Source of the DNA: a virus
Length of the DNA: 64,000 nt
Reading direction: 5' to 3' (one strand)
Virus record (IMG/VR): IMGVR_UViG_3300034071_001657
The notes under the pieces were generated by a model. The model was not told where the DNA came from and did no database searches. It was given only the letters and a program-made list of their open reading frames with translations. Both the position numbers and the translations under genes were made by a program. Shown here in pieces: positions 29,901 to 49,925 of the stretch. Numbering within the stretch: position 1 is the stretch's first letter; each line of letters starts with the position of its first letter.

Positions 29901-29924
29901 GTTTACCTCCTACATAAAATTAAA

Positions 29925-30274
29925 TTGTGGGTTATTCTGTTACGAGGAAACCCACCGAAACCCTAGGCTGTGTTTAAGCAGCCAATGCGAAACGTTCTTC
30001 GTTTGCGTTTACTTTGATTTACTTTTAACGACTCTCTGTGTCGGACCGTCCGTATCTCTATTACTTGCCCTGTCGAAACCAGGTCAGGCCCATCAGAAAA
30101 CTCTCTGCGATACTTGAAATCATGGTAGCCCTTCTTCCTAGCAGGTCCTTGCTTTGGTCGACTTTAGCAAGTTTTTCTGTTTATCTAGTGTAGCTACTCA
30201 AAGAGTTTTCTGGTGGACCTGGGCGGAATCGAACCGCCGTCCAGAACACCTTTCGATCAACATCATACGATCAT
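29925..30274 (-). ncRNA. ssrA: Two-piece (circularly permuted) tmRNA gene; tag ANEERFALAA
   Basis: Acceptor piece ~30274-30211 ends GGCGGTTCGATTCCGCCCAGGTCCACCA; intervening segment 30210-30092; coding piece starts GGGCCTGACCTGGTTTCGAC at 30091 (G3-U70 pair); tag ORF 30006-29974. The 3' end coordinate is approximate. Confidence 0.93.
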
Positions 30275-30280
30275 TTCATT

Positions 30281-30309
30281 AGTATACTATATATCAAAAC
30301 TTTTGTCTA
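30281..30309 (-). promoter_or_regulatory. Sigma70-type promoter for the tmRNA
   Basis: TAGACA-17-TATACT immediately upstream of the acceptor piece. Confidence 0.7.
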
Positions 30310-30603
30310 GATACTACGAGATGTTTGCCCAGATGATACTATGCAACTATAGTCCGCATTTTTTGGTGTTAGTATGACGGTAAAGCTTCCTGTGGCATCG
30401 TTCTTCCACAAGGAAATTGTATTCACGCCGCCTTCTTCCATACCAACAAAAACTAACTTTTCATCATACTCTTTGATTGCATCTAAAACTTTTTTAGCTT
30501 TGTCGCATACGATTCCCATAGGAACAATCACGTAAGTATCTTTTTCTTTTGAGAACGTGATTATAGGAAGCATCAATGCTAGTGAGAGAAAAAATTTTTT
30601 CAT
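30307..30603 (-). CDS. Hypothetical secreted protein
   Basis: MKKFFLSLALMLP signal peptide; two Cys. Confidence 0.7.
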   Translation of the reverse strand: MKKFFLSLALMLPIITFSKEKDTYVIVPMGIVCDKAKKVLDAIKEYDEKLVFVGMEEGGVNTISLWKNDATGSFTVILTPKNADYSCIVSSGQTSRSI

Positions 30604-46393: not shown

Positions 46394-46870
46394 TTATGCT
46401 GCTTTTGTGTGACATAAAATATGCTTGAACCTATCTGCTGCACCTGACGCCGCGAAAGCATTAGGCTTAACCATCGGAATAACATTACACATACCTTTGA
46501 TGTATCCAACTGCTTCATTTATAACACATGAACTTCCATGATCTTCATTTGGATTGATGTCTAGATGAACTTCAACTTCTCGATCATCTAGAACCTCAGC
46601 CAACTTAAGATATAATTCGGCAATCTTATAAACTTCATTCATTAGTCGCATTCTAGGTTTGTCTTTGCGTTGATCATAGTCCTTCTCACGAATGGTTTCT
46701 CCAAAGATTTTACATCCGTGCTTTCCTTCGATATGAATCACGACCACTAAAGTATAGTCGGCATACCAAACGCCTTTGATTTTAAATCTTTCTGAATCGC
46801 CACCGATATAGATTTTACTTGTGATCGGCTGTCCCTCGATGAAAGTTTTTACTTGATCAATGTTCATCAT
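46394..46870 (-). CDS. RNase H-fold protein, YkuK/DUF458-like
   Basis: KIYIGGDS, RMRLMNEV, EVHLDIN and KPNAFAASGAAD motifs; start taken at 46870. Confidence 0.85.
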   Translation of the reverse strand: MMNIDQVKTFIEGQPITSKIYIGGDSERFKIKGVWYADYTLVVVIHIEGKHGCKIFGETIREKDYDQRKDKPRMRLMNEVYKIAELYLKLAEVLDDREVEVHLDINPNEDHGSSCVINEAVGYIKGMCNVIPMVKPNAFAASGAADRFKHILCHTKAA

Positions 46871-47049: not shown

Positions 47050-47078
47050 ATTATACTAAATTTTATTTAGTCTGTCAA
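47050..47078 (-). promoter_or_regulatory. Internal sigma70 promoter in the tRNA array
   Basis: TTGACA-17-TATAAT just upstream of tRNA-Thr. Confidence 0.8.
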
Positions 47079-48323: not shown

Positions 48324-48413
48324 TGGTGAGTAGAGAGGGATTCGAACCCCCAACGGTTCCTAAGTAACGGATTTACAGTCCGCCGCGACACTCGCCATCT
48401 TCGCCGTCTACTC
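48324..48413 (-). tRNA. tRNA-Tyr(GTA)
   Basis: Loop CTGTAAA; long V-arm. Confidence 0.9.
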
Positions 48414-48417
48414 ATTT

Positions 48418-48742
48418 CCATATTGAAACACACTCAACATTACACCCTTGATTCGCTGCTGCTACTAGGGGCGGGTTCTAATGTGTTTCAATATGGTCCG
48501 AGACTCGAACTCGGCATGTAAGCGGCTTCGCAATCGGGTAGCGCAATTTCCCTAGCACTGACTAACACAGGTTAATTAAGCCCGCTCTCATCAGTGAAGC
48601 CTACACAGCTTCCTGCACCATATTGAAACACACTTGAGGTAACCGTGACAAGCGGGGGCTTTTTACACCTCTCTACCTGCGTGCTCACCAGACAGTCACT
48701 TCTGTTCTAAGGACGCTTTCGATTTAGTGTGCTTCAGTATGG
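48418..48742 (-). ncRNA. Unclassified structured RNA block with four copies of a 15-16 nt stem and an orphan T-arm-ACCA
   Basis: CCATATTGAAACACA or its complement at 48418, 48482, 48618 and 48727; CCGAG-TTCGAGT-CTCGG-ACCA at 48514-48494. Confidence 0.7.
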
Positions 48743-48816
48743 TGCCTCAGGTGGGACTCGAACCCACAAAATTTGGCTTCTAAGACCAACACGTATACCA
48801 ATTCCGTCACCGAGGC
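48740..48816 (-). tRNA. tRNA-Leu(TAG) lacking the long variable arm
   Basis: Loop CTTAGAA; 77 nt; variable region only ATTTT. Confidence 0.88.
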
Positions 48817-49038: not shown

Positions 49039-49098
49039 ATTCTACAGACTTTTCTATGGAATGTCAAGAACAAATTCTACTGTTGTTTTTTTACAACT
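49039..49098 (-). promoter_or_regulatory. Main tRNA-array promoter with GTTG-N8-CAACA box
   Basis: TTGACA-17-TAGAAT; box at 49081-49098. Confidence 0.8.
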
Positions 49099-49175: not shown

Positions 49176-49925
49176 TTAGATACTATTCAACAAAAACTTA
49201 ATTTCTGCTAGGTTCTTATATATAAGGACTTTATCGGACATTGAATTAATGCTATCTAAAATTAAGGATTTATTTTCATCCCAGACATCTCTTAGAGGTG
49301 TCACCTCAACATTTACGAAGAAAAGACTTGTTTGTCCACCACTTAATGGTAATGTGGTTTGCCGCTCCACTCTAAAAAATAAATTTTCAAAGATCAAAGG
49401 TGTGTCATCATACATTTTCTTTACATCAGGATGATTGCTCAATTCTGGAACTCGATTGATGGTCCACACAAATCGTTCAAAACTTCCCATTGTTGGATCA
49501 GACATCACTGATGCAAGCTTACCACTCACTTTTCGCAACTGTTCTCCATCAGCAACAGGTTCATGAATTTCATACAATGATTTGCCAAGTGCTGAGTTCG
49601 GCACCCATGAACTAGGAAAACAAAAGCAAATCGCAGCCAAACAACCACGATGCATTATAGCAACATCTTCTTCAAATGACAATGCAAACTCGACAATATC
49701 TCCAGTCACTGCTTTGCCAGTAAATGATTCGACTCTTCGAATTAGTTGGTTTGTTACGCAATCGATTGTGAATCCATAAAGATCACTGCCAAACGACTCA
49801 AGCTGTTTTACTTTTTCGTTTAGATATTTCACTCTTGGATTTGAATTGAATACTGGGCCTGTGTTTCTACTCATTCGAGGTTGAGTATTGTAAGGCGCTC
49901 TAACGATGTGTTCTAAATTATTCAT
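49176..49925 (-). CDS. DUF3445 / heme-dependent oxidative N-demethylase alpha-subunit-like protein
   Basis: EEDVAIM...LAAICFCFPSSW.P..ALGKSL.EIHEPV, RFVWTI and FRVERQT motifs. Confidence 0.8.
   Translation of the reverse strand: MNNLEHIVRAPYNTQPRMSRNTGPVFNSNPRVKYLNEKVKQLESFGSDLYGFTIDCVTNQLIRRVESFTGKAVTGDIVEFALSFEEDVAIMHRGCLAAICFCFPSSWVPNSALGKSLYEIHEPVADGEQLRKVSGKLASVMSDPTMGSFERFVWTINRVPELSNHPDVKKMYDDTPLIFENLFFRVERQTTLPLSGGQTSLFFVNVEVTPLRDVWDENKSLILDSINSMSDKVLIYKNLAEIKFLLNSI

What the first reader, a model, noticed from the sequence alone, without database searches (positions are those of the whole stretch)
48418..48742. Unknown structured-RNA cassette system inside the tRNA array
Seen on the - strand after tRNA-Leu(TAG), in order. 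Unit A: CCATACTGAAGCACAC, ~95 nt, GTGTGTTTCAATATGG. Then a ~120-nt RNA with helices (GAAGC/GCTTC, AGCGG-G-CTT/AAGCCGCT, crossing CACTGA/TCAGTG) ending in a perfect T-arm plus ACCA but with no anticodon arm. Unit B: CCATATTGAAACACA, ~50 nt, TGTGTTTCAATATGG. The same stem closes different interiors, and the inner copies can alternatively pair as an extended acceptor stem on the T-arm. Inference: a conserved processing or protein-binding handle carrying variable RNA cargo, plus a tRNA mimic. Possible roles are a decoy for anticodon nucleases or toxins, or a Y-RNA/YrlA-like species. This is my best candidate for an undescribed system.
Basis: partly seen in the sequence, partly recalled or inferred. 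Interest (0 to 1): 0.8.

Follow-up and report, generated by a model that had tools for sequence, protein, structure and literature searches.

The report
Constant-stem RNA cassettes in phage tRNA operon
Between two tRNA genes of an uncultured T4-like phage lie two folded small RNAs closed by the same 17-base-pair stem, with a tRNA-like RNA between them; they belong to a large, phage-only, uncatalogued family of swappable RNA cassettes that the host's RNA-cutting enzymes probably release, and whose job is unknown.

Summary
On the - strand, tRNA-Leu(TAG) is followed by hairpin A (48742-48618), a 121-nt T-arm RNA (48617-48497) and hairpin B (48496-48418), then tRNA-Tyr. Rfam has no match.

The same stem occurs in at least 120 IMG/VR contigs. 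A looser search gave 241 distinct hairpins in 92 loci, with about 170 unrelated interiors, almost all inside phage tRNA arrays and on the tRNA strand. The stem is 97.5% paired, shows compensatory changes at 15 of 17 positions, and starts on the CCA of the RNA upstream.

A phage 98% identical to this one carries a different interior in hairpin B, and the break points lie in the constant arms. Cargo is therefore exchanged as cassettes.

Five complete carrier genomes encode no Ro60, RtcB, RNase III or integrase. Real bacterial chromosomes do not carry the element.

The inner end of the stem has the UA/UG "distal box" of E. coli RNase III. This would place a cut 3 nt after the CCA. My best reading (about 0.5) is a host-processed stem that frees neighbouring RNA ends and releases stem-clamped small RNAs of unknown function. 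The Y-RNA reading is not supported.

This scan has already found the same family on other phage DNA. I found no paper or catalogue entry describing it.

The parts
48740..48816 (-). tRNA-Leu(TAG); its 3' CCA (48742-48740) is also the first three bases of hairpin A
   Evidence: ARAGORN; Rfam tRNA model, 62 bits
48618..48742 (-). Cassette A: 17-nt arms (48742-48726 and 48634-48618) closing a 91-nt structured interior
   Evidence: Fold z = -4.6. The interior is conserved in 7 loci, with 4 compensatory interior pairs.
48497..48617 (-). 121-nt non-tRNA RNA between the cassettes. T-arm at 48514-48498, then A. The CCA that follows opens cassette B.
   Evidence: Sequence. Only two variants are known; T-arm, CACUGA/UCAGUG and a 9-bp long-range helix covary. 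Not called as a tRNA.
48418..48496 (-). Cassette B: 17-nt arms (48496-48480 and 48434-48418) closing a 45-nt interior
   Evidence: Fold z = -5.1. The interior is conserved in L123, L128, L041 and L002, with compensatory changes in the stem. It is replaced by a 119-nt interior in L099 and four other contigs.
48324..48413 (-). tRNA-Tyr(GTA), 4 nt after cassette B. The true 5' end is at 48413 (acceptor GAGUAGA/UCUACUC).
   Evidence: ARAGORN and Rfam both start it too late and show mismatches in the acceptor stem.
49039..49067 (-). Sigma-70-like promoter (TTGACA-17-TAGAAT) that should drive Arg-Leu-Leu-A-middle-B-Tyr as one transcript
   Evidence: No terminator-like site lies between it and the next promoter at 47078-47050.
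30092..30210 (-). Comparison piece, not part of the cassette system. This is the intervening segment of the phage's permuted tmRNA: a hairpin with a 14-bp stem that starts inside the acceptor piece's CCA and ends 2 nt before the 5' G of the coding piece.
   Evidence: Rfam beta_tmRNA and tmRNA_permuted; fold z = -2.9

Best explanation
The region holds two members of a large, phage-only family of RNA hairpin cassettes, with a tRNA-like stable RNA between them. All three are made as part of the tRNA operon transcript.

Each cassette is a nearly constant 17-18 bp helix (5' arm CCAUAUUGAARCACAUU, 3' arm AGUGUGUUUCAAUAUGG). The helix opens on the CCA end of the RNA upstream and encloses one of many different folded interiors.

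Most likely mechanism (inferred):
- The helix is a processing and stability module read by host enzymes.
- Its inner end carries the UA then U.G pairs that form the distal box of E. coli RNase III.
- A cut 11 bp out would fall between stem positions 6 and 7, which is 3 nt after the CCA. The matching cut on the 3' arm would fall between positions -5 and -4.
- The upstream RNA would keep a 3-nt tail, which exonucleases trim back to CCA.
- The downstream RNA would keep a 2-6 nt leader, which RNase P removes when that RNA is a tRNA.
- The interior would be released as a small RNA clamped by an 11-bp stem with a 2-nt 3' overhang.

Because the arms are the same everywhere, recombination between them swaps interiors and whole units between phages. 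What the released RNAs do is not known.
For: Shown:
- The exact 15-mer occurs in at least 120 IMG/VR contigs, mostly as inverted pairs.
- 109 of 134 loci hold tRNA arrays.
- The RNA sense inferred from G-U pairs agrees with the tRNA strand 137:13.
- Across 241 distinct hairpins, 97.5% of stem cells are paired. There are 213 compensatory cells at 15 of 17 positions, against 36.5 +/- 5 in 1000 partner shuffles.
- 92 of 241 hairpins start exactly on a tRNA's CCA, and 24 end with the GG that begins the next tRNA.
- Interiors fall into about 170 clusters. All are in sense orientation, and they are conserved between phages with compensatory pairs.
- L099 and four other contigs are about 98% identical to the window. 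They carry a different interior in cassette B, with break points at the arm edges.
- In complete genomes the hairpins are confined to the tRNA array.
- One promoter lies upstream and no terminator lies within.
- U17-A is present in 228 of 241 hairpins and U16.G in 186 of 241. This equals the UA/UG distal box, which lies 11 bp from the scissile bond (PMC1540722).
- The carriers encode no RNase III of their own, so a host enzyme is implied.
- The phage's own permuted tmRNA has an excised hairpin with the same CCA-to-5'-G layout.
Against: - No RNA ends have been mapped, so every cleavage step is inferred.
- The proximal box matches the E. coli consensus at only 2 of 4 positions. One of the two mismatches is a G-C pair at pb position 3, where substitutions weaken binding in E. 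coli.
- The host is probably a betaproteobacterium, and its RNase III rules are unknown.
- The outer 10 bp are nearly invariant even where G-U changes would keep pairing. Simple RNase III recognition does not require this, so it hints at a sequence-specific partner or a second role.
- The looser hairpin set was selected for at least 15 of 17 pairs, which inflates the paired fraction.
- The function of the cargo is unknown.
Confidence: 0.5

Rival explanations
1. The constant helix is a binding handle for a specific, still unidentified phage or host protein. Each cassette would then be a ribonucleoprotein that presents a different RNA module, as Y RNAs do on Ro60. Cargo could include tRNA mimics that titrate tRNA-acting enzymes or host defence nucleases.
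For: - The outer 10 bp are nearly invariant beyond what pairing needs.
- 28 of 241 interiors carry a sense T-loop, often stacked on the constant stem.
- The middle RNA and many inter-hairpin units end in T-arm/hairpin-N-CCA.
- An RNase H-like PF04308 ORF is the commonest neighbour, in 38 loci.
Against: - Five complete carrier genomes have no Ro60/TROVE or RtcB.
- PF04308 is missing from 2 of 5 carrier genomes and is present in phages without the hairpins, such as DLP_6 and KVP40.
- No Y-RNA model hits.
- The stem has no bulge or internal loop of the kind most RNA-binding proteins read.
Confidence: 0.2
2. The hairpins act mainly at the DNA level. They would be recombination modules or mobile elements (MITE-like, integron attC-like or PeSL-like) that shuffle tRNA-array cassettes, and the RNA hairpin would be a by-product.
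For: - Cargo swaps have break points in the arms.
- The same tRNA-Leu(TAG) junction carries many different cassettes, or none, in different phages.
- PeSL repeats give a precedent for modular shuffling in T4-type phages (PMC2839356).
Against: - G-U asymmetry and compensatory pairs follow the transcribed strand.
- The ends coincide to the nucleotide with mature tRNA ends.
- Interiors differ within one genome and carry their own covarying RNA folds, unlike MITE copies.
- No tyrosine recombinase is present in 5 complete genomes.
- There are no extrahelical bases, no inverted cargo (0 against 125), no copies outside the tRNA arrays, and no promoter or terminator in the element.
Confidence: 0.12
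3. The hairpins are structural spacers or insulators only. They would keep neighbouring tRNAs and tRNA-like RNAs from misfolding and would be removed by RNase P, RNase E and exonucleases. The interiors would have no function of their own.
For: - The 3' arm ends in AUAU before GG, matching the general leader consensus of these arrays (U at -1 in 67%, A at -2 in 59%).
- In the window, the cassettes flank the only non-tRNA unit of the array.
Against: - Interiors are conserved across distant phages with compensatory changes and pseudoknot-like pairings.
- A spacer does not need 35-150 nt of folded RNA.
- A stable 17-bp stem would block 3' exonucleases rather than help them.
Confidence: 0.1

Closest known systems
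RNase III processing stems (phage T7 R1.1-type sites; leader-trailer stems of rRNA operons)
   Same: A regular dsRNA helix inside a polycistronic stable-RNA transcript. UA then U.G pairs lie at the end next to the enclosed RNA, like the E. coli distal box. The geometry would release the enclosed RNA and trim its neighbours.
   Different: One stem sequence is reused hundreds of times around about 170 unrelated interiors. It is anchored on a CCA end. The proximal box matches only partly. Cleavage has not been shown.
Intervening segment of two-piece (permuted) tmRNA genes
   Same: A hairpin that begins in the CCA of one RNA and ends just before the 5' G of the next, and that must be excised. This window has one at 30092-30210.
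   Different: In tmRNA the two flanks pair with each other as an acceptor stem, and the segment is thought to be discarded. Here the flanks are independent RNAs, the stem sequence is different, and the interiors are conserved.
Phage T4 species 1 and 2 RNAs (rnaC, rnaD)
   Same: Small stable non-tRNA RNAs of unknown function that directly follow a tRNA in a T4-type tRNA cluster. Like the window's middle RNA, rnaC has a T-arm near its 3' end.
   Different: No sequence similarity and no constant stem in T4. T4 has two such RNAs, not a modular family.
Bacterial and phage Y RNAs (YrlA) with Ro60/Rsr
   Same: A long terminal stem plus a variable module that in some members mimics tRNA (PMC4201824).
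   Different: The carriers have no Ro60, no model hit and no bulged Ro-binding helix. Most cargo is not tRNA-like.
PeSL cassettes of T4-type phages
   Same: A short conserved repeat that mediates modular shuffling between related phages (PMC2839356; swap seen).
   Different: PeSLs are a promoter plus a terminator flanking ORFs. These hairpins have neither, lie inside a tRNA transcript, and enclose RNA rather than genes.

Membership tests
RNase III substrate (E. coli rules, PMC1540722) | Regular double helix of at least 11 bp between the distal box and the cut | tested here: met
   17-18 bp stem, 97.5% of cells paired across 241 hairpins
RNase III substrate (E. coli rules, PMC1540722) | Distal box: a UA pair then a UG pair at the helix end away from the cut | tested here: met
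   U17-A in 228 of 241 and U16.G in 186 of 241, at the inner end (rule)
RNase III substrate (E. coli rules, PMC1540722) | Proximal box: GC, AU/UA, AU, AU/UA next to the scissile bond | tested here: inconclusive
   With the cut 11 bp from the distal box, the box reads A-U, A-U, G-C, U-A. That matches 2 of 4 positions. The host is not E. coli.
RNase III substrate (E. coli rules, PMC1540722) | Cleavage on both strands with a 2-nt 3' overhang | not testable with these tools
   Needs an enzyme assay or RNA end mapping
Y RNA / YrlA | Encoded beside a Ro60/Rsr (TROVE) gene | tested here: not met
   PF05731 is absent from 5 complete carrier genomes. The control genomes gave hits.
Y RNA / YrlA | Matches a curated covariance model | tested here: not met
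   No Rfam hit at E up to 10 in the region, or at E up to 1 over 8 cassettes in L133
tRNA (for the middle RNA) | Cloverleaf with anticodon arm and a 7-bp acceptor stem | tested here: not met
   ARAGORN and Rfam RF00005 do not call 48497-48617. The T-arm is followed directly by ACCA.
Integron attC site | Partner tyrosine recombinase; extrahelical bases; unconserved centre | tested here: not met
   PF00589 is absent from 5 carrier genomes. The stem is perfect and the interiors are conserved.
MITE / transposon ends | Copies share their interior, are dispersed in the genome, and have target duplications | tested here: not met
   About 170 interior clusters. Copies lie only in tRNA arrays. Flanks are tRNA ends, not duplications.
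Intrinsic terminator / PeSL | Stem followed by a U run; associated promoter | tested here: not met
   No promoter-like or terminator-like site at 48405-48745. No U run follows either hairpin.
T4 rnaC-type stable RNA (for the middle RNA) | Non-tRNA RNA in a phage tRNA cluster with a T-arm near its 3' end | tested here: met
   There is no sequence homology, so this is an analogy only.

The most novel reading that the evidence does not exclude
These phages carry an "RNA cassette library". One helical handle, read by a dedicated or borrowed enzyme, would launch more than a hundred different small structured RNAs from the tRNA operon early in infection. Some of these RNAs mimic tRNA. They would act as decoys, inhibitors or sponges against host tRNA-targeting or RNA-sensing defences, or would reprogram host RNA metabolism. 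Phages would trade the cassettes by recombination in the handle, giving an integron-like arms-race toolkit made of RNA genes.
Probability: 0.25. Interest if true: 0.9.

Novelty: new variant of a known kind. Interest (0 to 1): 0.72.

Why it matters
Phage tRNA arrays are usually read as codon-supply or anti-defence tRNA sets. Here a sizeable part of the array in hundreds of uncultured freshwater phages is something else. It is a modular system that expresses many different structured small RNAs behind one shared stem, and none of them is in Rfam or in the papers I could search.

If the RNase III prediction holds, the stem is a natural, portable device for making stem-clamped RNAs from a tRNA transcript. 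The cargo families would then be a large pool of uncharacterised phage RNAs, including tRNA mimics.

The unexplained T4 species 1 and 2 RNAs would also gain many possible functional analogues that can be compared.

Tried and rejected
- **Rfam.** Gathering and E-value modes found only tRNA, tmRNA, one group I intron and chance miRNA-like hits on the long stem.
- **BLAST against 50,697 phage records.** The region has no match. The window has only tRNA-sized matches.
- **Cultured relatives.** Melnitz, HTVC008M and DLP_6 lack the stem.
- **Bacterial genomes.** The gapped hairpin pattern gave 0 hits. The 18-mer gave 10 hits, about the chance level. Three of these are short, tRNA-packed freshwater MAG contigs that carry the hairpins and look like mis-binned phage.
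- **Partner proteins.** Ro60, RtcB, RNase III and tyrosine recombinase are absent from 5 complete carrier genomes. PF04308 is only loosely linked. Other frequent neighbours are ordinary T4-type genes.
- **DNA inversion.** No inverted cargo was found.
- **Alternative arm 2:arm 3 pairing (extended acceptor).** Covariation does not favour it.
It is not present in this window or in 5 other tmRNAs. Only the layout is shared.
- **Homologues of the middle RNA.** Only one divergent variant was found.
- **Similarity to T4 rnaC and rnaD.** None.
- **Other spacers in the array.** These are unstructured promoters.
- **Literature.** Searches by sequence and by keywords found no description.

Full report
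**What is in the window**

The window is part of an uncultured T4-type myovirus.
- Its baseplate wedge protein is closest to Pelagibacter phage HTVC008M and Methylophilales phage Melnitz, at 37-40% identity.
- No close relative exists among 50,697 phage records.
- It carries 24 tRNA genes on the - strand and a permuted beta-type tmRNA.

A sigma-70-like promoter at 49067-49039 precedes tRNA-Arg. No terminator-like site follows until the next promoter at 47078-47050. The finding's region is therefore transcribed with the tRNAs.

Reading the - strand, the order is:
1. tRNA-Leu(TAG), ending in A-CCA.
2. Hairpin A (48742-48618). Its first three bases are that CCA. It has 17-nt arms and a 91-nt interior.
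3. A 121-nt RNA (48617-48497) that ends in a 5-bp T-arm followed by A.
4. Hairpin B (48496-48418). It opens on the next CCA and has a 45-nt interior.
5. Four bases, then tRNA-Tyr, which really starts at 48413.

Both hairpins are the minimum-energy folds, with z = -4.6 and -5.1. Three exact 15-mer arms within 325 nt cannot be chance. The other long spacers in the array are unstructured promoter regions.

**A large family**

In 103 of 133 loci it forms +/- inverted pairs 50-150 nt apart, often several per locus. Of 134 loci, 109 hold tRNAs, 1515 in total.

A looser search required each arm to lie within 5 mismatches of the consensus and at least 15 of 17 pairs. It gave 241 distinct hairpins in 92 loci, 57-183 nt long with a median of 90.

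The consensus is (A)CCAUAUUGAARCACAUU - interior - AGUGUGUUUCAAUAUGG(U).

*Evidence that the stem is selected as RNA*
- The strand on which mismatches become G-U pairs is the tRNA strand in 137 of 150 informative cases, with 330 G-U pairs on that strand against 60 on the other.
- 97.5% of stem cells are paired.
- 213 cells changed on both sides yet remain paired. These lie at 15 of 17 positions and involve 29 alternative pair types. In 1000 shuffles of the partner arms the count is 36.5 +/- 5.1, with a maximum of 53.
- Caveat: the pairing filter inflates the paired percentage. The first set was chosen without any pairing filter and shows the same picture.
- The outer 10 bp are almost invariant. 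Positions 11-16 vary, mostly through transitions that keep pairing.

**Exact placement**

92 of 241 hairpins begin on the CCA of an ARAGORN-called tRNA (gap -3). Only 12 begin 0-60 nt after a tRNA. The rest follow non-tRNA units, which also end in N-CCA; the base before the CCA is A in 61% and G in 24%.

24 hairpins end with the GG that starts the next tRNA.

In two complete genomes (168 and 214 kb) searched whole, the good copies sit in one short stretch each, within loci that hold tRNA arrays.

**Phage only**

- Melnitz, HTVC008M and Stenotrophomonas phage DLP_6 lack the stem.
- 185,579 bacterial and archaeal genomes gave no gapped-pattern hit.
- The 18-mer hit 10 contigs, about the chance level. 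Three of them carry the hairpins. These are short freshwater MAG contigs packed with tRNAs, assigned to three different phyla, and so are most likely mis-binned phage DNA.

**Cargo**

Interiors fall into about 170 clusters. They are not filler.
- The window's A interior recurs in 7 loci, with compensatory changes in four interior pairs and a conserved loop-to-tail pairing.
- The B interior recurs in five distinct forms, including copies whose constant stem carries compensated changes.
- Cargo always has the same orientation, with 125 same-sense matches and 0 inverted. T-loop motifs occur only in sense, 28 against 0.
- About one interior in eight holds a T-arm, often stacked directly on the 3' arm.
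- The units between hairpins (48-186 nt) are also diverse folded RNAs, and many are tRNA-like.

**Cassette exchange**

L099, L138, L139, L140 and L142 carry the same tRNA-Leu, A cassette, middle RNA and tRNA-Tyr as the window.
- L099 aligns with the window at about 98% identity. The other four share the middle RNA, which is identical or differs at one base.
- In all five, the 45-nt B interior is replaced by a 119-nt interior that occurs elsewhere in other phages.
- In L099 the homology breaks at the last base of the 5' arm (48480) and resumes 4 nt before the 3' arm.
- L025 has a single hairpin with yet another interior between the same two tRNAs.
- Across loci, the tRNA-Leu(TAG) junction carries many different cassettes, or none.

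**The middle RNA**

Only two variants exist in the collections: the window type and the L038/L141 type. Comparing them supports three elements:
- the T-arm (4 compensatory pairs)
- CACUGA/UCAGUG (2 compensatory pairs)
- a 9-bp long-range helix whose 3' strand abuts the T-arm (3 compensatory pairs)

On its own the RNA does not fold better than shuffles (z = -0.6).

The inner arms could pair to put a 7-bp acceptor-like helix on the T-arm. At informative positions this alternative pairing is kept in only 60% of cases, against 90% for the native hairpins.

The closest analogue is T4 species 1 RNA (rnaC). It is a stable RNA of unknown function next to tRNA-Arg, and it also has a T-arm near its 3' end. 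There is no sequence similarity.

**How it most likely works**

No partner protein emerged.
- Five complete carrier genomes (162-400 kb) encode no Ro60/TROVE, RtcB, RNase III or tyrosine recombinase, and the control genomes gave hits in each search.
- The commonest neighbour is an RNase H-like PF04308 ORF inside the array (window 46394-46870, found in 38 loci). It is missing from 2 of 5 carriers and is present in phages without hairpins.

Host enzymes are therefore the default.

Pertzev and Nicholson defined the E. coli RNase III target as an 11-bp helix (PMC1540722).
- At the end away from the cut lies a distal box: a UA pair then a UG pair. The U.G is strictly required.
- Next to the scissile bond lies a proximal box: GC, W, AU, W.

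The constant stem has U17-A in 228 of 241 hairpins and U16.G in 186 of 241, at the end next to the interior. A conserved wobble pair in an otherwise Watson-Crick stem is unusual.

Counting 11 bp outward gives these predictions:
- The 5'-strand cut falls between positions 6 and 7, three bases after the CCA.
- The staggered 3'-strand cut falls between -5 and -4.
- Upstream RNAs keep a 3-nt tail, which RNase T or RNase PH could trim to CCA.
- Downstream RNAs keep a short leader ending in AU. This fits the array-wide RNase P leader consensus (U at -1 in 67%, A at -2 in 59%).
- The cargo is released with an 11-bp clamp.

This also explains why the stem is about 17 bp long and why it is anchored on the CCA.

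Weak points:
- The proximal box matches at only 2 of 4 positions.
- The host is probably a betaproteobacterium, judging from the tmRNA type.
- No ends have been mapped.

The phage's own permuted tmRNA shows that this layout is processed in this host. Its 119-nt intervening segment folds into a hairpin with a 14-bp stem that starts inside the CCA and ends 2 nt before the 5' G of the coding piece. Its stem sequence is different.

**Rivals**

- **Protein handle (Y-RNA-like), 0.2.** This fits the invariant outer stem and the tRNA-like cargo. No partner protein has been found.
- **DNA-level mobile or recombination element, 0.12.** This fits the swaps. It is contradicted by strand-specific G-U pairing, ends that match tRNA ends to the nucleotide, diverse conserved interiors, the absence of a recombinase and the confinement to tRNA arrays.
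- **Pure spacer, 0.1.** This does not explain the conserved folded interiors.

Recombination at the arms, as with PeSL repeats in T4-type phages (PMC2839356), is best seen as a consequence of the shared stem and is compatible with the main reading.

**Novelty**

Rfam 15 has no family for the stem, the A or B cargo, the middle RNA or the units in related arrays. Full-text searches by sequence and by keywords found nothing.

The scan's own index shows that several earlier windows from other phages led to the same family and to similar readings. This is therefore a repeat sighting within the scan. As far as I can tell, it has not been published.

I file it as a new variant of a known kind: processing stems and stable RNAs in phage tRNA operons. 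There remains a real chance that it is a new kind of modular RNA system.

Noticed in passing
window 46394-46870 (-): A 158-aa RNase H-like protein (PF04308/DUF458, YkuK family, uncharacterised) is encoded inside the tRNA array between tRNA-Pro and tRNA-Ser. Homologues lie in 38 related loci. One also lies inside the tRNA array of Stenotrophomonas phage DLP_6, and others occur in KVP40-like vibriophages. It may be a tRNA-array-linked nuclease.
   Followed up: partly
window 48324-48413 (-): ARAGORN and Rfam both place the 5' end of tRNA-Tyr(GTA) at 48404. The real 5' end is at 48413, which gives a perfect 7-bp acceptor stem and a long variable arm.
   Followed up: yes
window 29921-30323 (-): The phage encodes a permuted (two-piece) beta-type tmRNA with tag ANEERFALAA. 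Related contigs (L009, L005, L104, L110, L118, L054) also carry permuted tmRNAs. This points to a betaproteobacterial host.
   Followed up: partly
L017, L041, L079, L002, L042, L053 (units just after a hairpin): A conserved family of 150-190 nt RNAs. It has two 5' hairpins whose loops hold the palindromes UAAUUA and UCAUGA (possible kissing-loop dimerisation), followed by a tRNA-like part with D-like and T arms but no normal anticodon arm. The window's middle RNA has a UUAAUUAA loop but is otherwise different.
   Followed up: no
window 49176-49925 (-): A 249-aa HODM_asu-like (PF11927) ORF lies between tRNA-Ile(TAT) and tRNA-Cys. It is conserved at 50-100% identity in 13 viral contigs, next to the arrays.
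   Followed up: partly
L144, L145, L148 (GenBank MAG contigs): Short contigs binned as Planktophila, Crocinitomicaceae and Planctomycetia MAGs hold 9-21 tRNAs and several of these hairpins. They look like phage tRNA-array fragments mis-binned into bacterial MAGs.
   Followed up: partly
stem position 8 across 241 hairpins: 33 hairpins have an A.C mismatch in place of the G-C pair at stem position 8. This is the one recurrent non-standard pair in the stem and is unexplained.
   Followed up: no
window 47050-47078 and 49039-49067 (-): Two near-consensus sigma-70 promoters lie inside or ahead of the tRNA array, so the array is made as at least two transcripts.
   Followed up: partly
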